Shown: positions 1 to 29,539, counted from the stretch's first letter. The stretch is 32,000 nt of DNA from Geotalea daltonii FRC-32 (GCF_000022265.1 NC_011979.1:3450001-3482000), one strand, 5' to 3'. Numbers and translations: made by a program. Notes: generated by a model from the letters alone, not told the origin.

Positions 1-1
1 C

Positions 2-223
2 TGGTGCGGGCCGGCAATGGGCGCCTTCAACGAATGGACTGCCGGTTCGTTCCTGGAGCAGCATTCCCGGCGCACGGTAGTTTCGGCAGCTTTGAATATT
101 CTCTTCGGCGCCGCTGTCCAGACCCGCGCCGCCATGCTCAGCTGCCAGGGAATTCGCCTGACCCCGGAAGAACTGCAGATACAGCCGTTGGAAACAGCAA
201 AGATCAAGGAGTACCTTAGGTGA
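2..223 (+). CDS. pfaD: 3' end of a PfaD-type (trans-acting, FMN) enoyl reductase gene, truncated by the window edge
   Basis: Frame 2 is open from the window edge to TGA at 221-223. The translation WCGPAMGAFNEWTAGSFLEQHSRRTVVSAALNILFGAAV... resembles the conserved C-terminal block I recall for PfaD/trans-ER proteins. Its stop overlaps the GTG start of the next gene (GTGA). Only about 73 aa are visible, so the call is tentative. Confidence 0.5.
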   Translation, partial: WCGPAMGAFNEWTAGSFLEQHSRRTVVSAALNILFGAAVQTRAAMLSCQGIRLTPEELQIQPLETAKIKEYLR

Positions 224-3200
224 AAAAGAACGACGTGAAACCGGACGCGACTGCAAGCAGCACACCGCTGGCCATTATCGGCATCGGCTGCCTCTTCCCC
301 CAGGCCAATGATCCTGATGCCTACTGGTCCAATGTTGCCGAAGGTATCGACGCCATCACGGAAATACCCGCCACCCATTGGCAGATCGCCGACTATTTCG
401 ACGGTGATCCCAAGTCCCCGGACCGCACCTACGGCCGCAGGGGTGGTTTCATTTCACCGATCCCCTTCAATCCCATGGAATTCAACATTCCCCCCAACAT
501 CCTGGAAGCCATCGACACGTCCCAACTGCTCGGCCTGGTGGTGGCCGGCCAGGCGCTTAAAGACGCGGGCTATGGGCCGGGAAGCGATTATGACCGCAAC
601 CGCGCCAGCGTCATCCTCGGCGTTACCGGCACGCTTGAGCTGGTCGTGCCCCTGGGAGCGCGGCTGGGCCATCCCGTGTGGCGCAAGGCGCTCAAGGAAG
701 CCGGAGTGGATGAAAATATCGCCGAGGACGTGGTGCAGCGTATCGCCGACTCCTATGTCTCCTGGCAGGAAAATTCGTTCCCCGGTCTGCTCGGCAACGT
801 GGTGGCAGGGCGGATCAGCAAGCACTATGATTTGGGGGGAACCAACTGCGTCGTTGATGCCGCCTGCGCCAGCTCCTTCAGCGCACTGCACCTGGCCGCC
901 ATGGAACTGGATTCGGGCAAGGCCGACATGGTGGTAACCGGCGGCATCGATACTTTCAACGACATCTTCATGTACATGTGTTTCAGCAAGACTCCTGCCC
1001 TCTCCCCCACCGGCAATGCCAAACCCTTTGACGCCTCGGGAGACGGTACCATTCTCGGCGAAGGCCTGGGCATTGTCGTTATCAAGCGGCTGGCTGATGC
1101 AGAGCGGGACGGAGACAGGATTTATGCAGTTGTTCGCGGCATCGGTTCCTCCAGCGACGGCAAGGGGGATGCCATCTATGCACCCAGTGCCGGGGGCCAG
1201 AAAAAAGCCCTGGTTGATGCCTATAATCGGGCAGGAGTCACTCCCGACAGCATCGGGCTCATAGAAGCCCACGGAACCGGCACCAAGGTGGGGGATGCCG
1301 TTGAGGTAAGCGCTTTGCGCGACGTCTATGGTGAAGCAGATACCCCGTGGTGCGCCCTCGGCTCGGTCAAGTCGCAGATCGGCCATACAAAAGCCTCGGC
1401 AGGCGCCGCAGGCCTCATCAAATCGGCCCTGGCCCTGCACCACAAGGTGCTTCCCCCGACCATCAAGGTGGAAAAGCCGCTGAAAGAGGTGACAGCCGAG
1501 CGTACTCCGTTCTATCTTACCACCCGGAAGCGACCCTGGCTTCCCCGTGACAACGGGCCCCGCCGGGCCGCCGTCAGTGCTTTCGGCTTTGGCGGTTCCA
1601 ATTTTCATGTGGTCCTTGAGGAATACAAACCGGCAAAAGAAGCAGCAGACTGGGACGGCAATGTCCAGCTCGTTGCCCTGTCGGCACAGGGCGCCGATAA
1701 GCTGCAGGCTGCCCTGGACAACCTGTCTGCTTCTGCTTCGTGGGAAGAAGTGCGGGCTTTTGCCGCAAAAAGCCGTGCCGCCTTTGACAGCAGAGCTCCC
1801 TTCCGCATGGCTCTTGTCGTTGAACGGGAAAAAACCAATCTGGGTACTGTTGTCAATAACGCCAAGATGATGCTCGGCAAAAATGCCGCCAGTTCCTGGA
1901 GCACCCCCGATGGCGCTTTTTTCGCCCATGGTTCGCCCCCGGGAAAGCTGGGCATGCTCTTTCCGGGCCAGGGAGCCCAATATACCGGTATGCTCAGAGA
2001 CCTGGCATGCAACTTCCCGCAGATGCTCGACTCTTTAGCTGCTGCCGATGACGGTTTTGCAACCGCCACCGGCGAACGCCTCTCCGACCTCATCTACCCC
2101 CCCACTGCCTTTGATGGGGAAGCAAGGGAAAGACAGGAAGTGGCATTGCGGGCCACCGAATCTGCCCAACCGGCCATAGGCGCGGTCAGCACCGGGGCGC
2201 TGAATATTCTTAAAACCTTCGGGCTCAACCCTGACGCCGTCGCCGGACATAGCTATGGCGAGTTGACTGCCCTTCACGCTGCAGGACGACTGGATGAAAT
2301 GACGCTCAACCAGCTGTCTCGCCTGCGCGGCCGCCTCATGGGGGAGACAAAGGGGGAAAAGGGAAGCATGCTGGCCGTATCGGCCCCTCTGGCAACAATC
2401 GAACAGCTGCTGGCCGAGGAAAAGATCGACCTGGTCCTGGCCAACCGCAATGCCCCCAGCCAAGGGGTATTGTCGGGCAAGAGCGCCGAGATCGACCGGG
2501 CAGCCGATATCATTACCGGCCGCGGCATCCCCTGCAAGAAGATTCCCGTTGCCGCAGCCTTTCATAGCACCCTGGTCGCCGATGCAGCGGCACCCTTTCA
2601 GAAAGCGCTGGACAGCGTTATCTTCAATCCCGCCCAACTACCCGTTTATGCCAACACCACAGCCACTGAATATCCCGCTGAAAATACTGCTGCCAAGGCC
2701 CTTCTGGCAGGACAGTTGGCCAACTCGGTCGAATTCGTCGCCGAGATTGACGCCATGTATGCCGCCGGGATACGCACCTTTGTCGAAGTAGGTCCGGGAG
2801 CCAGACTCACCGGGCTCGTCAAAGCCATTCTCGGCGACAAGGAGCATCTGGCTGTTGCCCTGGATTCTTCAGCCGGCAAGCGCTCGGGCATTGCCGACCT
2901 GGGCAGGCTCCTTGCCCAGATGGTCGTGCTGGGGTACCCGGTGCGCCTGTCAATATGGGATGAAGGATATGAGATTCCTGCCGGGAATGGAAAAAAACCG
3001 GCCATGACGGTGCCCATCTGCGGTGCCAATTACGTGAAGCCTAAAGCAAAACGGCCGCCGCTGCCAAAGCAGATTCAACCGAACGTTGCCCGGCCTGTCC
3101 AGCCAGCGACCCAACCGGCAGCGGCTTTCCATTCCCAAGGACCGGCAGTTTCCCATACGACAACGTCCGTTTCCCCGGATGCCCTGGCCGAATCCATGCG

Positions 3201-6200
3201 TGTCACCCGCGACAGCCTGTCGCTGCTGCAAAAGATGCAGGAGGATACTGCCCAACTGCACCGGCGTTTTCTTGAGGGACAGGAAGCAGCCAACCGTACT
3301 TTTCAGACCCTGCTGGAGCAACAACAGCGCCTTTTCCAGGGAACGATCACCCCCGGATCAATGCCGCTGCCAGCTTCCGTTGCCCCATCAGCCACCGTGC
3401 AACAGGTTGCGGTCCAACCGGTTCAGGCTCCTTCGGCGCCTGCCACTGCAGCACCTGCAGTTTCTGCCCCGAATCCGGCGCCCCCTGCGGCCGCCAATCG
3501 GACGGCGGAGACCCTTCTTGCCGTGGTCAGCGAGAAAACCGGTTACCCGGTGGAGATGCTGGAAATGGAGATGGGGATGGATGCCGATCTGGGCATTGAC
3601 TCCATCAAGAGAGTGGAAATTCTCTCCGCTATCCAGGAACGCCTCCCCGGCGCACCGGTTATCGGCCCGGAACATCTGGGTACCCTGCGCACCCTGGGCG
3701 ATATTGCCGGCTATCTGGGCGCCGGAGCTCCTCTTTCTGCTCCTGCACCGCAGGCAGTCACGGCATCCCTGTCTTCCGCCGGCAACATCCAGGTTGCTGA
3801 AACGCTGCTGGCCGTGGTGAGCGAGAAGACCGGCTACCCGGTCGAAATGCTGGAAATGGAAATGGGCATGGATGCCGATCTGGGCATCGATTCCATTAAA
3901 CGTGTGGAAATTCTCTCGGCTATTCAGGAACGCCTCCCCGGCGCACCGGTCATCGGCCCGGAACATCTTGGTACGCTGCGCACCCTGGGTGATATTGCCG
4001 GTTATTTAGGTGCCGGAGCCTCTGTTGCCGCACCAGGTTCCATGGCAACAGCACCTGCAGCTGCCGGCAACGTAGCCGAAACTTTGCTGGCCGTGGTGAG
4101 CGAGAAGACCGGCTATCCGGTGGAGATGCTGGAAATGGAAATGGGAATGGATGCCGACCTGGGCATCGATTCCATTAAAAGGGTGGAAATTCTCTCGGCC
4201 ATTCAGGAACGCCTCCCCGGCACGCCGGTCATCGGGCCTGAACACCTGGGTACCCTGCGCACCCTGGGCGACATAGCCGGTTATCTCGGCGCCGGGTCAA
4301 CTCCCGTTCAGGCCGCCCTCCCACAGGCGGCCGCTATGCCCATCTCGGCAGGCGCTGGCGATGTTTCGCGGGTTCTGCTGGAGGTGGTCAGCGAGAAGAC
4401 CGGTTATCCGGTGGAGATGCTGGAAATGGAGATGGGTCTGGATTCGGACCTGGGTATCGACTCCATCAAAAGGGTGGAAATCCTCTCCACCATCCAGGAG
4501 CGCCTTCCCGGCGCACCGGTGATAGGTCCCGAGCATCTGGGCACCCTGAAAACCCTGGGTGAGATAGCCCGGCATCTGGGAAGTACTGCTGCAACTGCCG
4601 AGCCTGCCCCTGTGCAATCATCACTGCAGGCTGCTGCAGAGCCGGAATCAGGGAAAGAATCCCGAATCTCCCGCAGCACCATCCTCCCGGGCGAGCTTGG
4701 CGTCACCAAAGATGCTGAAGAATTACAGATAGGCACGGACAGTGAGTTCTGGGTAACCGACGATGGTTCCCCTTTTACCGCCGAGCTCTGCACCATGCTC
4801 TTCCGCCGCGGTTTTACCGTGCGCAGGATCAGCAACCATGAGGAACATGAAATTATCCCGCCGGCAAAACTTGCAGGTCTGGTAATCTCTGCACCCCAAA
4901 GCGGAACGGATGGGCAGTTCCTGGAGAAGGCCTTCATTCTCCTGAAAAGCGCCGCACCTGCCCTGCGCAAGGCGGGTGTAGAAGGGGGCGCGCGCTTTGC
5001 TACCATTTCCCGGCTTGATGGCGCCTTCGGTTGCGGTACGACCAATGAGCTTGCTGATCCCTTATCCGGCGGACTTGCCGGTTTTACCAAGACCGCAGCG
5101 CGGGAGTGGCCTGAGGTAACCTGCAAGGCCATGGATCTCGGCATTTTCCAGAATCCGACGACAATGGCAGAGGCCATTACCTCGGAGTTGTTCCGCGTCG
5201 GTCCTCTGGAAGTGGGTCTTGGCCCGGAACAGCGCGTAGGCCTTCAACTTGCCGAACTTCCCGCTGCCGAGACTGCTTCCACGCCATTGCGCGAAGGAGA
5301 TGTCGTCGTCATCACCGGCGGCGGCAGGGGCGTGACCGCTGAAACTGCCGTAGCTCTCAGTCGGGCCTACCGTCCTTTCCTGGTCCTCCTGGGCAGAAGT
5401 CCCGAACCTGTCCAGGAACCGGCATGGTTGAGCCCGTTGACGGAGGAAGCCCAGATCAAGAAGGGGATCATCGAGCAGGCCGGGGGCAAACTCCATCCCA
5501 GGGATATCGAGGAGCGCTACCGGGGCGTCCTTGCCGGACGTGAGCTTCGCGCCACCCTTGCCCGCATCGGAGCGGCCGGGGGCAAAGCCGCCTATCACTC
5601 GGTTGATATCCGCGATGTCGGCCAGGTGAGAAATCTACTGGCAGGCATCAGGCAGAAACATGGCCAAATCCGCGGTCTCGTTCATGGGGCAGGGGTCCTG
5701 GCAGACCGTTTGATCGTCGACAAATCGGTCGACCAGTTTGCCATGGTCTACGGCACAAAGGTCGACGGTCTGCATTCCCTGCTGAATGCCACGGCAGAAG
5801 ACGAGCTCCGCTTCATCGCCCTCTTCTCCTCCACCACCGGTCGTTTCGGCCGTGTCGGCCAGGTTGATTATGCGGTGGCCAATGAAGTCCTCAACAAGCT
5901 GGCCCAGGCTGAAATGCGCAAACGTCCTGGATGCAGGGTAGTCAGCATCAACTGGGGACCGTGGGACGGAGGCATGGTAACTCCTTCCCTGAAAAAGGTT
6001 TTCGCCGGCGAAGGGATCGGACTGATCGGTCTTGCTGCCGGTGGCGATTTCCTCGTTCGCGAGATTGCTGCCACAGGCTCGCCAGTCGAGGTCGTCGCCA
6101 TTGCCGGCGCTGCCGGTGAACTTTCCGCCATCTCACCCAATTCCCGCTCCCAGGTCCTGCCGGAAGCATTTGCCCTGAACCTGACCGTCAATGAATACCC

Positions 6201-7041: not shown

Positions 7042-7043
7042 GA

Positions 7044-13000: not shown

Positions 13001-14072
13001 CATCTACACCAAGGAACAGATCCTCGCCTACAGTAACGGCAAACCGTCGGAAGGCTTCGGCGACCGCTACCGCATCTTCGACAACGACCGCAAGATCGCC
13101 CGACTCCCCGGCCCTCCTTTCCAGTTCATGGACCGGGTCACCGGATTGCGCGGCGAACCGTGGCAGATGGTCGCCGGCGCCATGGCCGAAGCCCAATACG
13201 AGATTCCCGTCGATGAATGGTACTTCAAAGCGGAGCGTCAACCGCTCATGCCCTTCTGCGTGCTATTGGAGGCGGCTCTGCAGCCTTGCGGCTGGCTGGC
13301 AGCCTATGTGGGCTCGGCACTCAACAGCCCTACGGATATTTCTTTCCGCAATCTGGGGGGCAATGCGGTTCAGCATCGCCCGGTGACACCTGACAGCGGC
13401 ACCCTTACCGCGACCGCCACCATGACCAAAGTCGCCACCAGCGGCGGCATGATCATCCAGGAGTTCGACTTCAGTGTCGCCGACGGAAAAGGGATTATCT
13501 ACGAAGGTGATACCATGTTTGGCTTCTTCTCCCGTGAAGCGCTGGCCAACCAGGTGGGGGTCCGCGATGCTGTCATCTACCAGCCGACCGCCGAAGAGGA
13601 ACAACGGGGGCGCAGCCTGTCCTACCCCCAAAACGCCCCTTTCCCGGAAACAATGCTGCGCATGATCGACCGCATCGATCTCTTCGTCCCGGACGGAGGT
13701 CCGAAAGGGCTCGGCTATGTGAGAGGCATAAAAGAGGTGGACCCTGACGAGTGGTTCTTCAAGGCCCATTTTTACCAGGATCCTGTCACACCGGGCTCTC
13801 TGGGCCTGGAGTCGTTCCTCCAGCTCTTGAAGTTTGCTGCAGTTGAGCGCTGGGGCTGCAATGCAGGGGAAACCGTTGCCGTCATTGCACTTGGGCAAAG
13901 ACATAGGTGGCTCTACCGGGGGCAGGTGGTTCCCGCAAACAGCAGGGTTACGGTCCACGCATGGATCACTGCAGCGAACGACGAAGAACGGAACCTGACT
14001 GCCGATGGTTTTCTCTCCGTAGATGGAAAAACCATTTATCAAATGAACAATTTCACTGTAAAGCATGGGTAA
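7044..14072 (+). CDS. pfaC: PfaC-like PUFA/polyketide synthase subunit with embedded acyltransferase: KS - chain-length factor - AT-like - two (pseudo-DH + FabA-like DH) pairs
   Basis: 2342-aa ORF with its ATG 2 nt after the pfaA stop. KS has LDAACASS (Cys codon 7617-7619), ECHATGT and GHLLTAAG. The second KS-like domain lacks the active Cys (VSNEEGSG) and so reads as a CLF. The AT-like motif is SYSLGESAG (Ser codon 10440-10442). The two FabA-type motifs are WFITCHFVDDRVMPGT (His codon 12504-12506) and WFFKAHFYQDPVTPGS (His codon 13767-13769). Confidence 0.95.
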   Translation: MQEKPSVAIVGIGAIFPDAPDLEQYWENIRAGRTSAREVPAERWHVAADGVFDPTPGKADHVYSRRGCFIEQLPPISRLDGIALDPGLVAGLDPLFQLLLHAGKRAFDNGITAPLDRSRVGVIIGNLALPTETSAKLTRAWLGKTFEEKLLGRSRKREDIDPINRYVAGLPAGLLSNALGLGGGSCTLDAACASSIYAIKLAMDELLSGRADAMLTGGVSRPDPLYTQMGFSQLRALSKRGICSPFDAAADGLVVGEGAGIFLLKRTEDAVAHGDRIYGIIKGVGLSNDVGGSLLAPLSEGQLRAMGAAYAQSGWKPQDVDLIECHATGTAVGDATEFASLKQLWSETPTAASCVIGSVKSNIGHLLTAAGAAALTKVLLAMNEGILPPTASFSTPPDAIDLEGSPFQVLASARPWQRRGEGIPRRAAVSAFGFGGINGHLLVEEWLPDNHSGSRAIAVKAPTMEGSADIAIVGIDARFGPWQSLKKFTERVLGGDGSAEPTTPQRWWGAEKSRWFREEELDLASFKGFYIDEFAVATDQFRIPPLEMEEMLPQQLLMLQTAAAAMADAGLGREGNDRAAVLIGIALDLNSTNFSFRWSMAEEARKWQQELGNELTPGDLAGWTAELREAAGPSLTANRTMGALGNIVASRIAREFRVGGPSFTVSNEEGSGIRALEAAVRLLHAHEIDRALVGAVDFAGDLRAVLGHHSRRPFASDGNGSSFDEGSCGSTVGEGATAVVLKRLQDAERDGDRIYAVIKGIGTAGGGIVNPGKKAYTKAMERAYAGSGVEPHSISYLEACGSGNPPEDRMEAKALAGFLAGNQPRHCAVTSVKGDIGHCGAASGLASFVRGCLALYHEIIPPCRGVESPLPELSGKGSLHIPRSPRYWLRNRAEGPRRAGISTFGIDGTCSHVVLEGWASVPQRFQRERQAPLGSLGEFIFVVAGNNQAELTQGLDQLRQLNGEKKFDLARLALEWQARNGSGKTLALTMVARNVDELAALMEQAKAVVAGGNALILAQPMLRDRLFYSASPIGTEGKIAFVFPGSGNHYAGMGMELSVAWPEVFRRQDGRNLYLCSQFQPEYFWNGAPAAEVNNNHEAVIFGQVATGVAVSDIVRSFGIEPTSVISYSLGESAGLFALGAWHARDEMLMRMRKSTLFTRDLAGECRAAARTWGLGEGKEVEWSIGVVEATAKDVRRALRSTQRVYLLIVNTPDECVIGGDAKAVKRLVAMLECRFYPLHGVTTVHCEVAKQVAEAYRDLHLFETTPPPGVTFYSGAKGKAYSVTRASAADSILAQAVEGIDFPAVVNAAYDAGVRYFLEMGPGSSCSRMIGRILGERPHLARSACFSGIDGTSAILRLLAQLIAERIPVDLSPLYAEQAIPVSTAKGERQFQIVMVNRPFEPPKPTLRPVPTPPSPRPLPRGEGVVAAPPKTAVAPETPITERESATTSAVFCHQSPAATGDPLMQAFAAARQAQLQAHDAFLKVSNSFSRTMADTLAYQFSIRNELTAAGIIIDHLPLDSPRPLTAPEPGPKAAFDREMCLEFARGLVGRMLGPAFAEADSFPTRVRLPDEPLMLVDRIMSIEGEAKSMTSGRVVTEHDIHPGAWYLDGGRIPTCIAVEAGQADLFLSGYLGIDFITRGLAVYRLLDAVVTFHRALPVPGETIHYDISIERFFRQGDTYLFRFRFDATVNGQPLLTMRDGCAGFFTAGELAAGKGIVKGALDLRQIAGKRPADWMELVPMVKESYTASQLESLRRGDLAGSFGPLFAHIELAAPLTIPGGRMQLVHRVLELDPTGGRYGLGMIRAEADIHPDDWFITCHFVDDRVMPGTLMYECCLHTLRIYLLRMGWIAEAAEAAWEPVPGVASRLCCRGQVLESTRVAAYEITIRELGYRPEPYAIVDALMYADGKAIVEITSMSVRLSGTNKEKLVELWQGRKSAATSLSPTLSHQGRGSSLVPPPFRYPRGIKERGQEEGEAPAGAHKPAIYTKEQILAYSNGKPSEGFGDRYRIFDNDRKIARLPGPPFQFMDRVTGLRGEPWQMVAGAMAEAQYEIPVDEWYFKAERQPLMPFCVLLEAALQPCGWLAAYVGSALNSPTDISFRNLGGNAVQHRPVTPDSGTLTATATMTKVATSGGMIIQEFDFSVADGKGIIYEGDTMFGFFSREALANQVGVRDAVIYQPTAEEEQRGRSLSYPQNAPFPETMLRMIDRIDLFVPDGGPKGLGYVRGIKEVDPDEWFFKAHFYQDPVTPGSLGLESFLQLLKFAAVERWGCNAGETVAVIALGQRHRWLYRGQVVPANSRVTVHAWITAANDEERNLTADGFLSVDGKTIYQMNNFTVKHG
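11285..11320. repeat. Short GC-rich palindromic repeat remnant, in frame in the post-AT linker of pfaC
   Basis: CCCCTTC (11298-11304) pairs with GAAGGGG (11313-11319) across an 8-nt loop. It translates as PSPRPLPRGEGV, the same P/S-rich ...GEG... signature as the larger copies at 12868-12975 and 15136-15246. Confidence 0.4.
12868..12975. repeat. REP-like GC-rich palindromic element inserted in frame in the linker between the two DH pairs of pfaC
   Basis: A 9-bp perfect stem joins CCCTCTCCC (12883-12891) and GGGAGAGGG (12897-12905). A second, imperfect hairpin spans about 12919-12958. The 15-mer CCCCAACCCTCTCCC (12877-12891) is identical to 15219-15233 in the oleA-oleB spacer. The reverse-strand translation gives LPLPWWERVGERE, typical of such intergenic repeats. 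Confidence 0.75.
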
Positions 14073-14076
14073 AAAC

Positions 14077-15120
14077 ATGAAGTACTCAAAAGTACATATC
14101 GAGGCTTTGGGCTATGAACTTGCACCGATGGTCATAACATCGTCCGAGCTTGAATCGCGTCTGGAGCCACTTTATAAGTCCCTTTTCCTGGCCCCCGGCC
14201 AGCTGCAGGCCCTGACCGGCATCCGCGAACGTCGTTGGTGGGAGCCCGGCTATCCATTGTCACAGGGAGCCATTGCTGCCGGGAGAAAGGCTCTGGACGC
14301 CAGCGGCATCGCACCGGCGGAAATTGGCGCCCTCATCTACACCGGCGTCTGCCGCGAACAGTTCGAGCCTGCTACCGCCTGCCGCGTTGCAGCTGGTCTA
14401 GGCATCCAGGGCAATGCCGCTGTCTTCGACCTTTCCAACGCCTGTCTCGGAGTGTTGAACGGCATTCTGGATGTGGCGAACCGCATCGAGCTGGGACAGA
14501 TCAGGGCCGGGTTGGTTGTTTCCTGCGAAAGCGCCAGGGAAATAACCGAAATCATGATCGGACGGATGCTGGAAGAGAGGAACATGGAGCATTTCGCCGT
14601 TTCCCTCGCCACCCTGACCGGAGGATCGGGAGCGGTTGCCGTGTTGCTTACCGACGGCTCCTTTTCCGGCACCGGTCGGCGCCGCCTGGTGGGTGGAGCA
14701 ACCCAGGCCGCTCCCGAACATCACCGCCTCTGCCTGTGGGGCATGGTGCCCGATGGCAAGGATGGCTACAAACAGACTATGAGCACCGACGGCGTTAACG
14801 TCATGAATTACGGCGTTGAGCTGGGCCTGCGCACCTGGCAGGCATTCCTGAAGGAAGTTGCCTGGAAAAGCGAGGACGTCGACCGGGTGGTCTGCCACCA
14901 GGTAGGTTCCGCCCACCAGAGCGCCATTTTGAAGACCCTCGGCATCGCCAGCGACAAGGATTTCACCACCTTCGAATACCTGGGCAACATGGGCACCGTC
15001 TCTCTGCCCCTGACCGCGGCCATTGCCGACGAGCGGGAGATGCTGGAGCCGGGAGAAAAGGTGGCCCTGCTTGGCATCGGCAGCGGGCTCAATTGTCTGA
15101 TGCTTGGGGTTGAGTGGTAG
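14077..15120 (+). CDS. oleA: OleA, thiolase-superfamily (KAS III-like) head-to-head Claisen condensing enzyme
   Basis: The ORF is open from ATG 14065, which overlaps the pfaC stop by 8 nt. I prefer the second ATG at 14077 (MKYSKVHIEALGYELAP...) because it matches the OleA N-termini I recall. The active-site motif is LSNACLG (Cys codon 14443-14445). It is followed by oleBCD. The start is uncertain by 12 nt. Confidence 0.88.
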   Translation: MKYSKVHIEALGYELAPMVITSSELESRLEPLYKSLFLAPGQLQALTGIRERRWWEPGYPLSQGAIAAGRKALDASGIAPAEIGALIYTGVCREQFEPATACRVAAGLGIQGNAAVFDLSNACLGVLNGILDVANRIELGQIRAGLVVSCESAREITEIMIGRMLEERNMEHFAVSLATLTGGSGAVAVLLTDGSFSGTGRRRLVGGATQAAPEHHRLCLWGMVPDGKDGYKQTMSTDGVNVMNYGVELGLRTWQAFLKEVAWKSEDVDRVVCHQVGSAHQSAILKTLGIASDKDFTTFEYLGNMGTVSLPLTAAIADEREMLEPGEKVALLGIGSGLNCLMLGVEW

Positions 15121-15135
15121 ACCAAACCCACCCCA

Positions 15136-15246
15136 TAGTCCTTCTCCCCCCGGGAGAAGGTGGCCGGAGGCCGGATGAGGGGTAGCCGTTACCACCGACC
15201 TTTACCATCGCCCCCTCACCCCAACCCTCTCCCTAAGGAGAGGGGG
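15136..15246. repeat. Composite GC-rich palindromic (REP-like) element filling the oleA-oleB spacer
   Basis: Hairpin 1 pairs CCTTCTCC (15140-15147) with GGAGAAGG (15153-15160). Hairpin 2 pairs CCCTCTCC (15225-15232) with GGAGAGGG (15237-15244). GAGGGG (about 15175-15180) can pair with CCCCTC (15212-15217). It shares a 15-mer with the in-frame copy at 12877-12891. No T-tract follows, so it is not a canonical terminator. Confidence 0.75.
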
Positions 15247-15276
15247 CAACTACAAGACTTATAAGGTAAACACAGC

Positions 15277-16173
15277 ATGGCCATGGACATAACAAAACAC
15301 TACCCCTTTACCAGCAACTACCTGGACCTGAATGGCCTGGCCTACCACTACCTTGACGAAGGGAGCGGCGACCCGGTGGTCATGGTCCACGGCAATCCCT
15401 CCTGGTCCTTTTACTACCGCAACCTGGTCCTTGCCCTCAGGGACCGCTACCGGTGCATTGTCCCCGACCATATGGGCTGTGGCTTTTCGGACAAGCCGGG
15501 CGATGACCGCTACGAATATACCCTTCCACGGAGGGTTGACGACCTGGAGCGACTCATAGACCATCTTAAAGTGAATAAGAATATCACTCTGGTGGTCCAC
15601 GACTGGGGCGGGATGATCGGCATGGCCTATGCCGTGCGCCATCCGGAGCGGATCAAAAGGCTGGTAATCCTAAACACAGCAGCTTTCCATCTGCCCAAGG
15701 AAAAGCCATTTCCCCTGGCCCTGAAAATCTGTCGAGACACAATGCTTGGGACCCTGCTGGTCCGCGGTTTCAACGCCTTCAGCCTGGCCGCATCATTTGT
15801 CGGCTGCAAACGGAACCCCATGAATGCCGAGCTGCGGAAAGCCTATCAGGCCCCCTACGACAGCTGGCAGAACCGCATCGCCACCCTGCGCTTCGTTCAG
15901 GACATCCCCCTCGCCCCCGGTGACCGCAATTATGACATGGTCAGCAGCGTGGAATCCGGTCTGGAGCAGTTCCGCAACCTGCCCATGTCCATCTTCTGGG
16001 GAGAGCTTGACTTCGTCTTCGACCGCGCCTTTCTTGCCCAATGGAAGCGACGTTTTCCAGCTGCGGAAGTGCACAGTTACGGTGACGCGGGCCACTATAT
16101 CCTCGAGGATATGGGAAACGAGATCATTCCTCTCATTTCAGACTTCCTCAGCCGAACCGAGATAAAACCATGA
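15277..16173 (+). CDS. oleB: OleB, alpha/beta-hydrolase (haloalkane-dehalogenase-like) beta-lactone decarboxylase
   Basis: 298 aa. It has HGNPSWSFYYR and the nucleophile-elbow motif VVHDWGG, typical of the HLD-like fold. It sits between oleA and oleC, and its stop overlaps the oleC start (ATGA at 16170-16173). Confidence 0.88.
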   Translation: MAMDITKHYPFTSNYLDLNGLAYHYLDEGSGDPVVMVHGNPSWSFYYRNLVLALRDRYRCIVPDHMGCGFSDKPGDDRYEYTLPRRVDDLERLIDHLKVNKNITLVVHDWGGMIGMAYAVRHPERIKRLVILNTAAFHLPKEKPFPLALKICRDTMLGTLLVRGFNAFSLAASFVGCKRNPMNAELRKAYQAPYDSWQNRIATLRFVQDIPLAPGDRNYDMVSSVESGLEQFRNLPMSIFWGELDFVFDRAFLAQWKRRFPAAEVHSYGDAGHYILEDMGNEIIPLISDFLSRTEIKP

Positions 16174-17807
16174 GCAGAGCCGACTTCGTCAATATCGCCG
16201 CACACCTCCCCGAAATGGCCAACAGCCAGCCCGACACCCCAGCCATCATTTTCCCCAACAAGAATTGCAGCCTGACCTTCAGCGAGTTGGATCGTCTGAG
16301 CGATCGCATCGCCTATGGCCTGGAAACCTACGGCATCGGCCGCGGCGTTCGAACCATCCTGATGGTTACTCCCGGTCCCGACCTGTTTACCCTGACCTTT
16401 GCCCTGTTCAAGGTGGGGGCGGTACCGGTGCTGGTCGACCCGGGGCTGGGAGTGAAGAACCTGAAAAAGTGCCTGGCCGATGCCGAACCCCAGGCCTTCA
16501 TCGGCATTCCCAAGGCCCATATGGCACGGAAAATCTTCGGCTGGGGAGAAGACACCCTGCGCACCTTCGTAACCGTCGGCCGGCGCCTGTTCTGGGAAGG
16601 AATTACCCTGGCGGAACTTGTCGCCGGCCAGGGGGAACGAGCTTTTCCCATGGCCCCGACCGACCGGGACGATATCGCCGCCATTCTCTTCACCAGCGGC
16701 AGTACTGGTTCCCCCAAGGGAGCAGTCTACACCCACGGCAACTTCGCCGCCCAAGTGGAGGCCCTGCGCCAGGTCTACGGCATCGAGCCGGGAGAAATCG
16801 ATCTGCCCACCTTCCCCCTGTTCGCCCTTTTTGCTCCTGCCCTGGGGATGACCGCCGTTATCCCGGAAATGAACTTTACCCGACCCGGTTCGGTAAATCC
16901 GCGGAAGATCATCTCTGCCATAGAGAAATATCATGTTACGACCATGTTCGGGTCCCCCGCCCTCATTAACCGGGTCGGCCGCCATGGGGTGAAGAAGGGG
17001 AAGAGACTCCCCTCTCTGAAACGGGTCATCTCAGCCGGTGCCCCTGTGCCAGCGGCAGTAATGGAACGCTTTGCCGCCATGCTCAGGCCGGACGCCCAGA
17101 TTTTCACCCCTTACGGAGCAACGGAAGCCCTGCCGGTCTGCTCCATCGGCAGCGATGAAATCCTCGGCGAAACCCGGGCCATCACCGAGGCCGGTGGCGG
17201 AGTCTGCATCGGCAGTCCGGTGAAAGGCATAAGGCTGGAAGTGATCGAGATCAGCGACACTCCCATTGATCAATGGGATGATGCCTTGCGCGCCCCCATC
17301 GGCAAGATCGGCGAGATTGTCGTTCAGGGAGAACAGGTAACGCGCCGCTACCATAACCGTCCGGAAGCAGACCTGCTTTCCAAGATAAAGGACCCGGCCA
17401 CCGGCGGCTTTTTCCATCGCATGGGCGACCTGGGGGGGAGAGACGAACAGGGGCGGATCTGGTTCTGTGGCCGCAAATCCCATCGGGTAGTAACCCCTGA
17501 GGAAACCCTCTTCACCATTCCCTGCGAGGCGGTCTTCAACACCCATCCCTCCGTCTTCCGCACAGCCCTGGTGGGAGTCGGAGAAAAGGGCAAACAGCTG
17601 CCGGTTCTCTGCGTGGAGCTGGAAAAGGGTATCAGGGCCAACAAGAAGAAGGTGCGACAGGAGCTGATGAACCTGGCCAAGGCCCACATCCATACCCAGG
17701 GAATCAGCACCATCCTCTTTCACCCGGCTTTTCCGGTGGATATCCGCCATAATGCAAAGATATTCAGGGAAAAGCTTGCCGTCTGGGCAGCACGGAGCCT
17801 TAAATGA
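16170..17807 (+). CDS. oleC: OleC, AMP-dependent synthetase/ligase family beta-lactone synthetase
   Basis: 545 aa. The adenylation motif is FTSGSTGSPKG and there is a later YGATE motif. It is translationally coupled on both sides (ATGA overlaps at 16170-16173 and 17804-17807). Confidence 0.9.
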   Translation: MSRADFVNIAAHLPEMANSQPDTPAIIFPNKNCSLTFSELDRLSDRIAYGLETYGIGRGVRTILMVTPGPDLFTLTFALFKVGAVPVLVDPGLGVKNLKKCLADAEPQAFIGIPKAHMARKIFGWGEDTLRTFVTVGRRLFWEGITLAELVAGQGERAFPMAPTDRDDIAAILFTSGSTGSPKGAVYTHGNFAAQVEALRQVYGIEPGEIDLPTFPLFALFAPALGMTAVIPEMNFTRPGSVNPRKIISAIEKYHVTTMFGSPALINRVGRHGVKKGKRLPSLKRVISAGAPVPAAVMERFAAMLRPDAQIFTPYGATEALPVCSIGSDEILGETRAITEAGGGVCIGSPVKGIRLEVIEISDTPIDQWDDALRAPIGKIGEIVVQGEQVTRRYHNRPEADLLSKIKDPATGGFFHRMGDLGGRDEQGRIWFCGRKSHRVVTPEETLFTIPCEAVFNTHPSVFRTALVGVGEKGKQLPVLCVELEKGIRANKKKVRQELMNLAKAHIHTQGISTILFHPAFPVDIRHNAKIFREKLAVWAARSLK

Positions 17808-18799
17808 AAGCTCTTGTTACCGGCGGTGGCGGGTTTCTCGGCAGCGCCATTGTCCGGCTGCTTATGACCAGGGGCGATGAGGTACGCAGCTTCTCCCGCA
17901 GTGAATACCCGGAGCTTGCACAACTGGGGGTGGAACAGGTGCAGGGGGATCTGGCCGATCAGGACTGCTTGATGGAAGCGGCCTCAGGATGCGACATCAT
18001 CTTCCATGTGGCGGCCCAGGCCGGCATCTGGGGAGATTACGCCGGCTATCACCGAGCCAACGTTACCGGCACGGAAAACATTATCGCCGCCTGCCGTGAG
18101 AACGGCATCAAGCACCTCGTCTACACCGGCTCTCCCAGCGTGATCTTTGACGGACGGGATGTGGAGGGGGGCGACGAGTCCCTCCCCTACCCGGTACATT
18201 TCGAAGCGAATTATCCGAAGACCAAGGCCCTTGCAGAGCAAATGGTCCTGGCGGCCAACGGCCCGGAGCTGGCTACCGTTTCTCTCCGGCCGCACCTGAT
18301 CTGGGGGCCCGGGGACAATCACCTGGTGCCGCGGATCATCGCCCGCGCCAAAGCAGGCAAGCTGCGCCGCATCGGCAACCGCCACTGTCTGGTGGACACG
18401 GTCTACGTGGACAACGCCGCCCAGGCCCATCTGCTCGCCGCCGACCGCCTCACCCATGACAGCCCCATAGGGGGCAAGTCCTACTTCATTTCCAACGGCC
18501 AGCCGATCCCCCTCTGGGAGATGGTCAATGCCATCCTTGACGCCGCAGGACTGCCGCCGGTGACGCGAACCATCCCGCCACAGGCCGCCTATGCCATAGG
18601 AGCGCTCTGCGAGCAACTATGGAAATTCCTCCCCATGAAAGGCGAGCCCCCCATGACCCGCTTTGTCGCCAAAGAGCTTTCCACCGCCCACTGGTTCGAC
18701 ATTTCCGCCGCCCGTCGTGATCTGGGTTATCAGCCGGAAATAAGTATTGCCGAAGGGCTGAAACGCCTGAAAACCTGGCTCTCCGAAAGGGAGGCGTAA
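17804..18799 (+). CDS. oleD: OleD, NAD(P)H-dependent short-chain dehydrogenase (3-beta-HSD / epimerase-dehydratase family), 2-alkyl-3-ketoalkanoate reductase
   Basis: 331 aa. It has the N-terminal Rossmann motif VTGGGGFLGSAIV, a YPKTK catalytic motif (YxxxK), and the typical position after oleC. Confidence 0.88.
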   Translation: MKALVTGGGGFLGSAIVRLLMTRGDEVRSFSRSEYPELAQLGVEQVQGDLADQDCLMEAASGCDIIFHVAAQAGIWGDYAGYHRANVTGTENIIAACRENGIKHLVYTGSPSVIFDGRDVEGGDESLPYPVHFEANYPKTKALAEQMVLAANGPELATVSLRPHLIWGPGDNHLVPRIIARAKAGKLRRIGNRHCLVDTVYVDNAAQAHLLAADRLTHDSPIGGKSYFISNGQPIPLWEMVNAILDAAGLPPVTRTIPPQAAYAIGALCEQLWKFLPMKGEPPMTRFVAKELSTAHWFDISAARRDLGYQPEISIAEGLKRLKTWLSEREA

Positions 18800-18804
18800 G
18801 ATCC

Positions 18805-19506
18805 ATGCCCCTTGCCCATGGAGAAGTGCATGTCTGTTTTTATTCCCTGGATGTTGAAAGTGCGGAACTGCAGCGACTTGAGCAGCTGTTGTCTGCCGAT
18901 GAGCTGGCACGGGCAAAACGGACCCTCAACCGGACGGTACGAAACAGGTTCATAGCCGGACGGGGGACTCTCCGCCGCATTCTCGCCCGATATCTGGAGA
19001 AAGAACCGGAGAGTGTGGTCTTTGCCGAAGGGGAACAGGGCAAACCGTATCTGGCCGACCGGGCTGAGCATCAAAGGCTCCGTTTCAACCTGACCCATAA
19101 GCATGAGCGGGCTGCTCTTGCCGTCAGCGGAGGCTCTGAGCTGGGAATAGACCTTGAAGAGCTGCAGGAGACCATTCCCTTTTGCAGGATGGCGGAACGT
19201 TTTTTTCTCTCAAAGGAAAGCGAGGAACTGTCGAGCCTGCCTCATGAACAGCAGCTGGCCGCTTTTTACCGCTGCTGGACCAGGAAAGAAGCCTATCTGA
19301 AAGGACTCGGCACCGGCCTGACCCGCCCGGCGAACAGTTTCGGCGTTTCTCTCCTCCCAGGCCAGCCACCAATCCTCGACGATCTACAGTATCCGGAGCT
19401 TGGCCGAAAATGGACTCTCCATGACATCGGCGTTCCGGTGGGCTACTGCGCAGCCCTGGCCATGGAAGGGAAGCCTGCTGCTTTAACCTGCTTTCCCTGG
19501 ACCTGA
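18805..19506 (+). CDS. pfaE: Sfp-type 4'-phosphopantetheinyl transferase (PfaE-like), presumably activating the four PfaA ACPs
   Basis: 233 aa. Motifs are GKPYL, FNLTH, GIDLEE and WTRKEAYLKGLGTG. The RBS GGGAGG lies upstream, and the gene starts 5 nt after the oleD stop. Confidence 0.85.
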   Translation: MPLAHGEVHVCFYSLDVESAELQRLEQLLSADELARAKRTLNRTVRNRFIAGRGTLRRILARYLEKEPESVVFAEGEQGKPYLADRAEHQRLRFNLTHKHERAALAVSGGSELGIDLEELQETIPFCRMAERFFLSKESEELSSLPHEQQLAAFYRCWTRKEAYLKGLGTGLTRPANSFGVSLLPGQPPILDDLQYPELGRKWTLHDIGVPVGYCAALAMEGKPAALTCFPWT

Positions 19507-19510
19507 CATT

Positions 19511-21079
19511 CTATTTCCCCCGCATCACATCCTCTATCTCAGCCGGCGCCGGGCGTTTGCTGAAGGCGTTTGTCCGCCTTGCCTCCGCCTCCATCTGCCC
19601 CAGGACCGATAGGAGATGATCCGCTGTGGTGATCCGGTAAAACCTGCCTATTTTCGATTCAAGACCCGAGATATCGCTTTTCCCGGGAAAGACGACCAGC
19701 CCGTACACCGGCAATTGGGGCAACCGTCCCTTCACCATGTTCATCAGGTTCATCACATAGTCACGCACCTGGTGATAGGGGTTTTCTCCCCAGTCCCCTT
19801 TAACTTCGACTGTTTGGTTACCGCTCCCCCGGCAGAGCCATTTGGAATTCTCCACCGAGCCTTCCGCTTCAATGGCGCCGAAGTAGCCCTTTGCCTCAAT
19901 GACAATCAGGCAGTCCTTGCTGATGACGATACAGTCGATAAAGCGGCTCCCCCTGTTGCCCGTTGCCACGTCGAACTGACTCACCACCCGCCAATGGCCG
20001 CTTTTGGCCTGGGGACTGTCGGCGACGATCCTGATCACCTGCTGTTCGAAAGCTGTGCCAGTCTTTGTACCGATGGCGCTGGAAAGGGTCTTGGAAGCCT
20101 CCACCTTGTCCCGCCCCACCGCCTTTTTATATTTCTCCACCTCTATCTGCAGCTGTTCCTTTTCAACCCTGGTCAGGTCAAGCTGTTCTTCAAATAGTTT
20201 GGACTGCCGGTTGTTTTCCTCTTCCAGATCCCTGATGATGCTCTCGGCAGCCTCGCGGTATTCCACCACATCCTTCAGCCTTTGCTCAAGCCCCCTGATA
20301 CGTCCGATGTAGGTTTCAAACTGCCTGCTGAACCGTAGTTGTTGATCCTCAATCTGACGCCCCTTCTCCTCCAGCTGGGCTACGTAAGTGTCGGCATCCT
20401 TGACCAACTCAGCCTCACGCTGCCGGGCATTGCGCAGCTCTATTCGTCTGATCTTTAGGAAAAGCTCCAGGAGCAGCCAGATGAATATCCCCCCCATGAG
20501 ACAGGAGGTCATGGTTGCCAGATATCGCCGCCACAGCTCGTTATCCCGGAAGGGATCATGCAACCATTGCCGGTAGTCTTCACTGAAAGAAGGAATGGTG
20601 CTGATGGAATAGACGCGCCCAATGATCTGGCCACTATGTCCGGCTTTGCCGTCCATCTGCTGCAGCAGCTGGAGAACGGATGAGGACGGTCTGCGGAGCA
20701 CTATATACGGATAGTTGAGCAGGTCTGTTGCATCAATGGGCTTATTTGGAATCAAGCCGGGACTTGTCCGAAAGAGAATGTTCTGCCCGCTGCAGTTTTC
20801 CTCGCCGGTCCTGCAGTCGGTTATCACCAGGGCGTAGATGCTGTAATTGCGATCCAGGAGCTCCTGCAGCTTGCCATGGTTTCCCTCCAGCAGAAGACTT
20901 GAGAGGAGGTTTGCATTCAGACCCATTCGGGCTTCCGCATGGACCTTGATCATGGTTTTGCCAAGGTAATCGGAAAAATTGCGGCCATTGAGGTAATTGG
21001 CCATGAGAACGGCAAGATAGAGGATGATGCAAAGCCTGATGCCGCTGTATGCCAGCTGTTTCAGCAACGCCTTCGACAT
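19511..21079 (-). CDS. Membrane-anchored coiled-coil protein with a C-terminal NERD (nuclease-related) domain
   Basis: 522 aa. Hydrophobic helices lie at about aa 13-29 and 188-209, flanking a roughly 160-aa loop. A heptad-rich E/K/R/Q segment spans about aa 212-325. The C-terminal NERD-like core is FIDCIVISKDCLIVIEAKGYFG. The gene is convergent with the PPTase gene, with 4 nt between the two stops. Confidence 0.7.
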   Translation of the reverse strand: MSKALLKQLAYSGIRLCIILYLAVLMANYLNGRNFSDYLGKTMIKVHAEARMGLNANLLSSLLLEGNHGKLQELLDRNYSIYALVITDCRTGEENCSGQNILFRTSPGLIPNKPIDATDLLNYPYIVLRRPSSSVLQLLQQMDGKAGHSGQIIGRVYSISTIPSFSEDYRQWLHDPFRDNELWRRYLATMTSCLMGGIFIWLLLELFLKIRRIELRNARQREAELVKDADTYVAQLEEKGRQIEDQQLRFSRQFETYIGRIRGLEQRLKDVVEYREAAESIIRDLEEENNRQSKLFEEQLDLTRVEKEQLQIEVEKYKKAVGRDKVEASKTLSSAIGTKTGTAFEQQVIRIVADSPQAKSGHWRVVSQFDVATGNRGSRFIDCIVISKDCLIVIEAKGYFGAIEAEGSVENSKWLCRGSGNQTVEVKGDWGENPYHQVRDYVMNLMNMVKGRLPQLPVYGLVVFPGKSDISGLESKIGRFYRITTADHLLSVLGQMEAEARRTNAFSKRPAPAEIEDVMRGK

Positions 21080-22443: not shown

Positions 22444-22582
22444 TTTTTCCCCCTTGATGTTACCCTGTTACTTCAGACATAGCTTGAGTAACAGTATCGG
22501 TAACCGGGGGAAAACCTTTACCACAATCGATTTAAGCGAATCTAATAACGTACTGCAGTCCTGCAGGGCGAACGATTCGAGG

Positions 22583-22912: not shown

Positions 22913-22950
22913 GTAATTTCCTTTTTCAGCCTTGATAAGTACAGTCCCTG

Positions 22951-23466: not shown

Positions 23467-23493
23467 CTGAAATCGCTCCTGTGCTTTTCCTGT

Positions 23494-24396: not shown

Positions 24397-24401
24397 GGTC
24401 T

Positions 24402-25685: not shown

Positions 25686-25695
25686 GATAACTCCT

Positions 25696-29516: not shown

Positions 29517-29539
29517 AACTCTCCCTTTATCCCCTGCTG

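What the first reader, a model, noticed from the sequence alone, without database searches (positions are those of the whole stretch)
1..19506. PUFA-synthase-like PKS physically fused with OleABCD and a PPTase in one translationally coupled operon: predicted dedicated polyunsaturated hydrocarbon pathway
The gene order is pfaD(3' end)-pfaA-pfaC/AT-oleA-oleB-oleC-oleD-PPTase, all on the plus strand.

Junctions:
- GTGA overlap at 220-223
- 2-nt gap at 7042-7043
- 8-nt overlap or 4-nt gap at 14065-14079
- ATGA overlaps at 16170-16173 and 17804-17807
- 5-nt gap before the PPTase

Established knowledge covers the enzymology. OleA condenses two acyl thioesters head-to-head. OleD reduces the product, OleC forms a beta-lactone, and OleB decarboxylates it to a cis-olefin. 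In Shewanella, a pfa synthase supplies the chains that OleABCD turns into a C31:9 polyene. As I recall, the pfa and ole loci are unlinked there, whereas here they form one unit.

An open point visible in the sequence is the hand-off step. Apart from OleB, no thioesterase or acyl-CoA synthetase is present to move an ACP-bound product to OleA. This suggests either direct ACP-to-OleA transfer or a missing partner.
Basis: partly seen in the sequence, partly recalled or inferred. Interest (0 to 1): 0.7.

Follow-up and report, generated by a model that had tools for sequence, protein, structure and literature searches.

The report
Known Geobacter polyunsaturated hydrocarbon operon
This is a Geobacter-family gene cluster that joins a polyunsaturated-fatty-acid-type synthase to the OleABCD olefin enzymes; it is real and well conserved, but the same gene order and its likely C31:9 hydrocarbon product were already published for Geobacter bemidjiensis, so it is ordinary.

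Summary
On the + strand the window carries:
- the pfaD 3' end (to 223)
- pfaA (220-7041; KS-AT-4xACP-KR-DH)
- a pfaBC fusion (7044-14072; KS-CLF-AT-DH2)
- oleA (14077-15120), oleB (15277-16173), oleC (16170-17807), oleD (17804-18799)
- an Sfp-type PPTase (18805-19506)

One junction was left out: a 156-nt oleA-oleB gap filled with REP-like hairpins.

The source is an uncultured Geobacteraceae. In 80 Geobacterales oleA loci, pfaBC lies directly upstream in 72 of 76 loci that could be assessed, usually overlapping oleA or within 20 nt of it. oleB always follows oleA.

The arrangement is not new:
- Shulse & Allen 2011 defined this "Type I" pfa-like cluster in Geobacter and linked it to ole genes.
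- Yoshida et al. [quoted passage not shown]
- The hand-off question was addressed by Allemann et al. 2019, who found that OleA takes acyl-ACP directly in a fadD-null host.
- The cluster also has a PfaB-like AT domain, a class reported to off-load chains.

Verdict: correct reading, already known, low interest.

The parts
2..223 (+). 3' end of pfaD (enoyl reductase); the last 73 codons plus the TGA stop
   Evidence: It matches TIGR02814 pfaD_fam positions 401-442 of 444, E 2.9e-10. It is 68% identical to the tail of a PfaD in relative L082. The 471-aa body of that protein scores 527 bits against TIGR02814, above the 449 cut-off.
220..7041 (+). pfaA-like subunit (2273 aa): KS (Cys216), malonyl-AT (Ser678), four tandem ACPs (Ser1128, 1225, 1318, 1415), KR, PS-DH (His1999)
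   Evidence: TIGR02813 scores 1727 bits against a cut-off of 1010. Pfam domains come, motifs. The start is GTG 220, with AAGGAG 8 nt upstream.
3520..4569 (+). 291-nt tandem repeat, 3.7 copies, encoding the near-identical ACP domains of pfaA
   Evidence: Tandem Repeats Finder score 1094 with 80% matches. There are four LGIDSI phosphopantetheine sites.
7044..14072 (+). pfaBC fusion (2342 aa): KS (Cys192), CLF (aa 469-966, no active-site Cys), PfaB-like AT (aa 1041-1325, GESAG Ser1133), two FabA-type DH pairs (aa ~1570-2334)
   Evidence: Pfam on the whole protein and on segments. TIGR02816 pfaB_fam matches aa 1035-1375, E 1.3e-29, at 103 bits, below its 144 cut-off. In the KS1/KS2 alignment, DAAC is replaced by SNEE in the second KS.
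12870..12974 (+). In-frame REP-like palindromic insert in the linker between the DH pairs of pfaBC; it encodes SLSPTLSHQGRGSSLVPPPFRYPRGIKERGQEEGE
   Evidence: Sequence and translation are. In an alignment of 63 sequences this linker varies by 0-60 aa and carries similar PLP..GEGRGEG remnants. The hairpin motif recurs at the same site in relatives.
14077..15120 (+). oleA (347 aa), the thiolase that performs the head-to-head Claisen condensation; Cys123, Glu97, His274, Asn304
   Evidence: The best PDB match is X. campestris OleA 3ROW, E 1e-54, against 7e-19 or weaker for FabH. All four catalytic residues align. PRK09258 scores 499 bits. The listed homologues are 346-347 aa, which fixes the start at 14077.
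15121..15276 (.). Non-coding oleA-oleB gap carrying REP-like GC-rich hairpins (15140-15160, 15210-15247, 15225-15244). No + strand intrinsic terminator and no sigma-70-like promoter were predicted.
   Evidence: Sequence, inverted repeats, and the promoter/terminator scan. The RNA fold gives -54.2 kcal/mol, z -2.07. In 49 of 74 relatives this junction is an overlap, so the gap is a secondary insertion.
15277..16173 (+). oleB (298 aa), a haloalkane-dehalogenase-like alpha/beta hydrolase (beta-lactone decarboxylase); HDWGG Asp109, His273
   Evidence: Abhydrolase_1 matches at E 1.4e-33. The best NCBIfam and PDB matches are haloalkane dehalogenases. It lies immediately after oleA in 80 of 80 loci.
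16170..17807 (+). oleC (545 aa), an AMP-dependent beta-lactone synthetase
   Evidence: NF045786 and NF045785 (olefin beta-lactone synthetase) score 689 and 678 bits full-length, below their narrow cut-offs of 900 and 850. PRK09274 scores 789 bits against a cut-off of 478. The TSGSTGSPKG motif starts at aa 175.
17804..18799 (+). oleD (331 aa), an NAD(P)H-dependent 2-alkyl-3-oxoalkanoate reductase; GGGGFLG at aa 7-13, and Tyr137/Lys141
   Evidence: NF042422 oxyalk_red_OleD scores 478 bits full-length, below its 580 cut-off. 3Beta_HSD matches at E 3.5e-63.
18805..19506 (+). Sfp/HetI-type 4'-phosphopantetheinyl transferase (pfaE equivalent)
   Evidence: ACPS and AASDHPPT_N Pfam hits. NF042922 HetI scores 180 bits, below its 370 cut-off. 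The GIDLE and WTRKEAYLK motifs are present. It overlaps oleD by 4 nt in 21 of 25 relatives that have it, and overlaps it in 23 of 25.

Best explanation
The window holds the Geobacterales version of the pfa-ole polyunsaturated-hydrocarbon operon: pfaD-pfaA-pfaBC-oleA-oleB-oleC-oleD-pfaE. It is orthologous to the published cluster of Geobacter bemidjiensis.

Proposed mechanism:
1. The PPTase primes the four ACP domains of PfaA.
2. The iterative Pfa synthase builds a methylene-interrupted polyenoyl chain on ACP. Its parts are KS, KS-CLF, malonyl-AT, KR, PS-DH, FabA-type DH/isomerases and the PfaD enoyl reductase. By analogy the chain is 16:4n-3.
3. OleA (Cys123, Glu97, His274, Asn304) takes two such chains, most likely straight from the ACP domains, and condenses them head-to-head to a 2-alkyl-3-oxo acid.
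4. OleD reduces this acid, OleC closes the beta-lactone using ATP, and OleB decarboxylates it to the cis-olefin. The expected product is a C31:9-type polyene.

Shown here: the gene content, the domain and active-site integrity, the junction geometry, and conservation of the synteny.

Inferred: the identity of the product, that the synthase is dedicated to this pathway, and the route of hand-off.
For: - Domains and family models are.
- The OleA catalytic tetrad aligns with X. campestris OleA.
- Motifs of OleB, OleC, OleD, the PPTase, KS, AT and ACP are intact.
- The source is Geobacteraceae.
- Synteny: pfaBC is directly upstream of oleA in 72 of 76 loci and oleB follows in 80 of 80.
- True junction distances: pfaBC/oleA overlaps or is within 20 nt in 62 of 75 loci. 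oleA/oleB overlaps in 49 of 74, oleC/oleD in 41 of 47, and oleD/PPTase in 23 of 25.
- Cultured relatives with the full compact order include Geomonas limicola (L078), Geobacter sp. AOG1 (L076) and Geomobilimonas luticola (L063).
- Literature: the Type I cluster with a pfaBC fusion occurs in Geobacter and Pelobacter, G. bemidjiensis makes hentriacontanonaene, and ole genes are often linked to these clusters (PMC3098273).
- Literature: OleA uses acyl-ACP of the Pfa synthase directly (PMC6463001).
Against: - There is no chemistry or genetics for this organism, and no pfa or ole knock-out in any Geobacter was found in the literature searched.
- OleC, OleD and the PPTase fall below the narrow NCBIfam equivalog cut-offs. 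Those models were built on Xanthomonas, Shewanella or HetI sequences.
- pfaD is truncated by the window edge.
- The 156-nt structured gap could decouple oleBCD-PPTase expression from pfa-oleA.
- In 9 of 46 relatives oleC and oleD are not near oleAB, and 18 of 51 have more than 500 nt inserted between oleB and oleC. The unit is therefore less rigid than 'one operon' implies.
Confidence: 0.85

Rival explanations
1. The pathway is the same, but the hand-off is indirect. The PfaB-like AT domain of the pfaBC fusion, or a thioesterase encoded elsewhere, releases or transfers the polyenoyl chain. OleA then receives it as acyl-CoA or from another carrier, not from the PfaA ACP domains.
For: - The AT-like domain (aa 1041-1325) keeps a GxSxG serine and matches pfaB_fam.
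- PfaB is reported as a long-chain terminal acyltransferase (PMC12895367).
- The thraustochytrid AT-like domain is reported as a thioesterase (PMC8003026).
- X. campestris OleA works on acyl-CoA in vitro, as cited in PMC6463001.
- Deleting pfaT lowers PUHC about 10-fold in S. oneidensis.
Against: - No acyl-CoA synthetase or hot-dog thioesterase is present in the window, upstream of pfaD in L082, or among the insertions in relatives.
- In a fadD-null E. coli, pfaA-E plus oleA are sufficient for the 31:8 ketone.
- The tight pfaBC/oleA coupling is conserved.
Confidence: 0.25
2. The linkage is regulatory or historical only. The Pfa-like synthase makes its own secondary lipid, such as a PUFA or another long-chain acyl product for membranes, and OleABCD condenses ordinary FAS II acyl chains.
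For: - Shulse & Allen note that pfa homologues might retain a stand-alone product.
- In 4 of 76 relatives oleAB is not next to pfa; in L067 it follows hemA and hemC.
- In some relatives oleC and oleD lie elsewhere.
Against: - G. bemidjiensis is reported to make the polyunsaturated C31:9, not FAS II-derived olefins.
- In Shewanella, PUHC depends on pfa, and OleA uses only Pfa-derived 16:4 even though FAS II is present.
- Start/stop overlap of pfaBC and oleA is conserved in most lineages.
- No AGPAT or other lipid-incorporation domain is present in the cluster.
Confidence: 0.08
3. The end product is not an olefin but a beta-lactone or ketone, because the later Ole steps are inactive or differently used.
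For: - OleC and OleD score below the equivalog cut-offs.
- OleA/C/D homologues make beta-lactone natural products in other bacteria (abstract of PMC7064751).
Against: - OleB is present in 80 of 80 loci, directly after oleA, with the Asp-His residues intact.
- All four ole genes are full-length.
- The relative makes C31:9.
Confidence: 0.03

Closest known systems
Geobacter (Citrifermentans) bemidjiensis Bem pfaD-pfaA-pfaB/C-oleABCD-pfaE cluster; 'Type I secondary lipid synthase' of Shulse & Allen 2011 (PMC3098273; Yoshida et al. 2016, PMC4882568)
   Same: It has the same order of bacteria (Geobacterales), the same gene order with pfaD first, a pfaBC fusion, oleABCD directly downstream and a PPTase last. 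Its reported product is C31:9, the predicted product here. Relatives in Geomonas, Geobacter and Geomobilimonas show the identical layout.
   Different: The species is different and uncultured; OleA is at most 89% identical to any genome hit. This copy carries REP-like insertions in the oleA-oleB gap and in the pfaBC linker. No direct sequence comparison with strain Bem was possible, because it was not among the 80 loci returned.
Shewanella oneidensis / S. pealeana pfaEABCD plus oleABCD (C31:9 PUHC pathway)
   Same: The two enzyme sets and the chemistry are the same. OleA condenses Pfa-derived 16:4 chains, and the evidence points to direct acyl-ACP use (PMC6463001). The catalytic Cys is also at position 123.
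   Different: In Shewanella the pfa and ole loci are unlinked. pfaB and pfaC are separate genes, pfaD is last and pfaE is separate. An accessory thioesterase, pfaT, exists. The synthase also makes EPA for membranes.
Photobacterium profundum SS9 pfa-pfaT-ole adjacency (PMC6463001)
   Same: The pfa and ole operons are adjacent on the chromosome.
   Different: They are two operons separated by the hot-dog thioesterase pfaT. The strain makes EPA, and no PUHC was detected. No pfaT-like gene is present in this window.
Xanthomonas campestris / Stenotrophomonas OleABCD
   Same: The OleA fold and catalytic tetrad are the same (3ROW, E 1e-54). The OleB, OleC and OleD families are the same.
   Different: The substrates are FAS II-derived acyl-CoAs. 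There is no linked Pfa synthase or PPTase. The products are mono- or low-unsaturated C27-C31 olefins (the last point is from my own knowledge).

Membership tests
OleABCD head-to-head olefin pathway | OleA: a thiolase-fold condensing enzyme with Cys-His-Asn plus the extra Glu base (X. campestris C143/E117/H285/N315) | tested here: met
   Alignment to 3ROW (E 1e-54; the next family, FabH, is 7e-19 or weaker). Cys123, Glu97, His274 and Asn304 are conserved. PRK09258 scores 499 bits, above the 285 cut-off.
OleABCD head-to-head olefin pathway | OleB: a haloalkane-dehalogenase-like alpha/beta hydrolase with an Asp nucleophile and a His | tested here: met
   The best NCBIfam and PDB hits are haloalkane dehalogenases. 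HDWGG Asp109 and GH His273 are present. No OleB-specific model was available.
OleABCD head-to-head olefin pathway | OleC: an ANL-superfamily beta-lactone synthetase | tested here: inconclusive
   The top specific models are NF045786 and NF045785 (689 and 678 bits, full-length), but both fall below their curated cut-offs of 900 and 850. The broader PRK09274 model passes, at 789 bits against 478.
OleABCD head-to-head olefin pathway | OleD: an NAD(P)H-dependent 2-alkyl-3-oxoalkanoate reductase (3-beta-HSD-type SDR) | tested here: inconclusive
   NF042422 and NF042423 are the best hits (478 and 442 bits, full-length) but fall below the 580 cut-off. The Rossmann motif and YxxxK are present.
OleABCD head-to-head olefin pathway | The four genes are clustered in the order oleA-B-C-D | tested here: met
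OleABCD head-to-head olefin pathway | Production of a long-chain internal cis-olefin | not testable with these tools
   Only literature on the relative G. bemidjiensis is available (C31:9).
Pfa (PUFA-type) synthase, 'Type I' secondary lipid cluster | PfaA with KS-MAT-tandem ACPs-KR-DH | tested here: met
   TIGR02813 scores 1727 bits, above the 1010 cut-off. There are four ACPs.
Pfa (PUFA-type) synthase, 'Type I' secondary lipid cluster | A fused pfaBC with KS-CLF-AT and two FabA-type DH domains | tested here: met
   The second KS lacks the active-site Cys. The AT matches pfaB_fam, but at 103 bits it is below the 144 cut-off.
Pfa (PUFA-type) synthase, 'Type I' secondary lipid cluster | A PfaD enoyl reductase at the 5' end of the cluster | tested here: inconclusive
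   Only 73 C-terminal residues lie in the window (TIGR02814, E 2.9e-10). The homologous position in L082 is a bona fide PfaD at 527 bits.
Pfa (PUFA-type) synthase, 'Type I' secondary lipid cluster | An Sfp-type PPTase (PfaE) | tested here: met
   ACPS and AASDHPPT_N domains and the Sfp-type motifs are present. It falls below the HetI equivalog cut-off.
Pfa (PUFA-type) synthase, 'Type I' secondary lipid cluster | Synthesis of a methylene-interrupted polyenoyl chain | not testable with these tools
   Inferred from the domain set and from the product of the relative.

The most novel reading that the evidence does not exclude
In Geobacterales the Pfa synthase may be a dedicated hydrocarbon-precursor machine. 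On this reading OleA is made in fixed stoichiometry with PfaBC, as suggested by the start/stop overlap conserved in most lineages. OleA would dock on the synthase and intercept 16:4-ACP, so that no free fatty acid or acyl-CoA is ever formed. The PfaB-like AT would then serve chain-length gating rather than release. This would make the cluster a natural, compact PKS-to-olefin assembly line for testing carrier-protein-dependent OleA catalysis.
Probability: 0.3. Interest if true: 0.4.

Novelty: already known. Interest (0 to 1): 0.12.

Why it matters
It matters little as a discovery, because the linked pfa-ole-PPTase cluster of Geobacter and its C31:9 product have been in the literature since 2010-2016.

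The census run here adds detail that may help anyone engineering or dissecting the pathway:
- pfaBC-oleA-oleB is the conserved, tightly coupled core across Geobacterales.
- oleCD-PPTase is a looser module, and the oleB/oleC junction is an insertion hotspot.
- No thioesterase or acyl-CoA synthetase travels with the cluster, which fits the published model of direct acyl-ACP use by OleA.

Tried and rejected
- I looked for a pfaT-like or other thioesterase, or an acyl-CoA synthetase, in three places: the rest of the window, the DNA inserted between oleB and oleC in relatives, and upstream of pfaD in L082. None was found. The insertions are toxin-antitoxin genes, PhnA/YjdM and PilZ.
- I looked for a terminator or promoter in the oleA-oleB gap. 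None was predicted on the + strand.
- Rfam and tRNA scans of the whole window found nothing.
- An exact look-up of the window's PfaA, meant to recover the full pfaD and upstream DNA, found nothing on record.
- A search with the 73-aa pfaD tail returned only short proteins. They looked like stand-alone 100-aa genes, but in the two contigs I inspected (P0122 in L082, P0133 in L083) the pfa genes are split into many short ORFs, as expected from frameshifts in error-prone assemblies, so I rejected the idea of a small PfaD-C-terminal protein.
- PDB searches for OleB, OleC and OleD gave no entries named as Ole enzymes.
- The primary paper for C31:9 in G. bemidjiensis (Sukovich 2010, PMC2893475) is not held. 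That fact is therefore cited second-hand from PMC3098273 and PMC4882568.
- Strain Bem itself was not among the 80 genome loci, so the comparison with it rests on the literature and on Geomonas, Geobacter and Geomobilimonas relatives.

Full report
**1. Observation**

The ORF map and the junction sequences confirm a run of co-directional + strand genes:
- a truncated ORF ending at TGA 221-223
- 220-7041
- 7044-14072
- 14065 or 14077 to 15120
- 15277-16173
- 16170-17807
- 17804-18799
- 18805-19506

A convergent minus-strand gene ends at 19511.

- GTGA at 220-223, with an AAGGAG Shine-Dalgarno at 206-211
- a 2-nt gap at 7042-7043
- two candidate oleA starts, at 14065 and 14077
- ATGA overlaps at 16170 and 17804
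- a 5-nt gap before 18805

All 120 listed OleA homologues are 346-347 aa, like the 347-aa product from ATG 14077. The start is therefore ATG 14077, which leaves a 4-nt gap.

It is a 156-nt non-coding gap at 15121-15276.

**2. What the genes are**

Pfam and NCBIfam results and motif checks give the following.

- *PfaA (2273 aa).* It has a KS with Cys216, a malonyl-AT with GHSYG, four nearly identical ACPs, a KR and a PS-DH. The ACPs are encoded by a 291-nt tandem repeat. TIGR02813 scores 1727 bits against a cut-off of 1010.
- *PfaBC fusion (2342 aa).* It has a KS with Cys192, a second KS-like domain without the catalytic Cys (the CLF), a PfaB-like AT with GESAG, and two FabA-type DH pairs.
- *OleA.* Its best solved relative is X. 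campestris OleA (3ROW, E 1e-54, against 7e-19 or weaker for FabH). Cys123, Glu97, His274 and Asn304 align with the published catalytic residues.
- *OleB.* It is a haloalkane-dehalogenase-like hydrolase with the HDWGG Asp and a C-terminal His.
- *OleC and OleD.* Each hits the olefin beta-lactone synthetase or the 2-alkyl-3-oxoalkanoate reductase models as the top specific match, over the full length. Both fall below those narrow equivalog cut-offs.
- *Last gene.* It is an Sfp/HetI-type PPTase.
- *5' fragment.* It matches the last 42 positions of the pfaD model. In relative L082 the homologous tail (68% identity) belongs to a bona fide PfaD that scores 527 bits against a cut-off of 449.

**3. 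Source and conservation**

An identical OleC lies on a 25.5-kb Logan contig with the same neighbours. The closest named OleA sequences, at about 80% identity, are from Pelotalea, Geobacter and Geomonas.

A scan of one genome per species returned 249 OleA relatives. The best 80 loci were kept, and nearly all are labelled Geobacterales or Desulfuromonadales. I mapped the window's proteins onto those loci with tblastn and worked out true stop-to-start distances.

| Junction or feature | Result |
|---|---|
| pfaBC directly upstream of oleA | 72 of 76 loci with upstream sequence |
| pfaBC/oleA overlapping or within 20 nt | 62 of 75 |
| oleB follows oleA | 80 of 80 |
| oleA/oleB overlapping | 49 of 74 |
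| oleA/oleB with a 100-450 nt gap, as in this window | 16 of 74 |
| oleC/oleD overlapping | 41 of 47 |
| oleD/PPTase overlapping | 23 of 25 |

The weak point is the oleB/oleC junction. In 18 of 51 loci more than 500 nt is inserted there. In 9 of 46 loci with at least 8 kb of downstream sequence, oleC and oleD are not nearby at all. Only 14 of 46 loci have the fully compact layout of this window.

Cultured strains with the full order include Geomonas limicola (L078), Geobacter sp. AOG1 (L076) and Geomobilimonas luticola (L063).

**4. Comparison with the literature**

[quoted passage not shown] They list it in six Geobacter genomes (G. bemidjiensis, G. lovleyi, G. uraniireducens and three unnamed strains), Pelobacter propionicus, Desulfuromonas acetoxidans and Gemmata. 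[quoted passage not shown]
- Allemann et al. 2019 (PMC6463001) note that pfa and ole are adjacent in P. profundum SS9. They show that pfaA-E plus oleA are sufficient for the 31:8 ketone in a fadD-null E. coli. They conclude that OleA's in vivo substrate is acyl-ACP, taken directly from the Pfa synthase. They also describe the accessory thioesterase PfaT.

The linked state, however, is already described, and in the same bacterial family as this window.

**5. The hand-off step**

I found no hot-dog or other thioesterase, and no acyl-CoA synthetase, in any of three places: the window, the insertions in relatives, and upstream of pfaD in L082.

The cluster does carry a PfaB-like AT domain with an intact serine. 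This class is reported to be a long-chain terminal acyltransferase (PMC12895367) or a thioesterase (PMC8003026).

I consider direct ACP-to-OleA transfer the most likely route. It fits the published experiment and the conserved pfaBC/oleA coupling. An AT-mediated route is a real but less likely alternative.

**6. The oleA-oleB gap**

The gap contains GC-rich hairpins, CCTTCTCCC/GGGAGAAGG and CCCTCTCC/GGAGAGGG. It folds somewhat better than shuffled sequence (z -2.07). No T-tract terminator and no sigma-70-like promoter is predicted on the + strand.

Most relatives have an overlap at this junction. The gap is therefore best read as a secondary insertion of a REP-like element into a junction that was once tight. 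Co-transcription remains likely, although translational coupling is lost at this point.

**7. Verdict**

The functional interpretation is supported. The product (a C31:9-type polyene) and the claim that the synthase is dedicated to it are inferred by orthology, not shown. The arrangement is already known, so interest is low.

Noticed in passing
window 12870-12974 (inside pfaBC) and 15140-15247 (oleA-oleB gap); relatives L002, L005, L020, L025, L051, L056, L075, L081 at ~8870-8900: The same kind of GC-rich REP-like palindrome (CCCTCTCCC-N-GGAGAGGG) lies in the intergenic gap and also in frame in the linker between the DH pairs of pfaBC. In 63 aligned sequences that linker varies by 0-60 aa and carries PLP..GEGRGEG-type remnants. 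This suggests repeated in-frame insertions of repeat elements that a megasynthase linker tolerates.
   Followed up: partly
relatives L003, L005, L015, L018, L020, L023, L024, L032, L036, L052, L056 between oleB and oleC: The oleB/oleC junction is an insertion hotspot: 18 of 51 loci have 0.5-7.7 kb inserted. The inserted genes sampled are toxin-antitoxin components (BrnA, YafQ-like, PIN, DUF2442-HTH), PhnA/YjdM and a PilZ protein. None relates to the pathway.
   Followed up: partly
L027 (Pelotalea chapellei), L049, L058, L062, L073, L080; L061, L067, L069, L070: Some Geobacterales keep pfaBC-oleA-oleB but have no oleC or oleD within 9 kb downstream. Four loci have oleA-oleB without pfaBC upstream; in L067 they follow the haem-synthesis genes hemA and hemC. 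I could not check whether the missing genes lie elsewhere in those genomes.
   Followed up: partly
window 19511-21079 (-): A 522-aa protein with a C-terminal NERD nuclease-related domain converges on the PPTase gene. Only 4 nt separate the two stop codons, and no terminator is predicted between them.
   Followed up: no
window 21220-29543 (-): This is a cluster of multihaem c-type cytochromes (407, 462 and 674 aa; the last has 13 paired-CXXCH stretches and an MtrC/MtrF-like domain). It also holds a Sel1-repeat protein, an NHL-repeat protein and a SurA-like PPIase. GC is lower here (51-57%) than in the pfa-ole operon (58-62%).
   Followed up: no
L043 ('Pedobacter sp.' MAG) and L050 ('Lysobacterales' MAG): Short contigs (3-4 kb) assigned to non-Geobacter MAGs carry an oleA about 80% identical to the window's, with the Geobacter-type pfaBC tail upstream. 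They are most likely mis-binned contigs, not horizontal transfer.
   Followed up: no
L082, L083 (ENA ERZ25039480 / ERZ25039538 contigs): In these contigs pfaD and pfaA are split into many short ORFs, as expected from frameshift errors. The splitting creates spurious ~100-aa 'proteins' in the protein database that match the PfaD C-terminus.
   Followed up: yes
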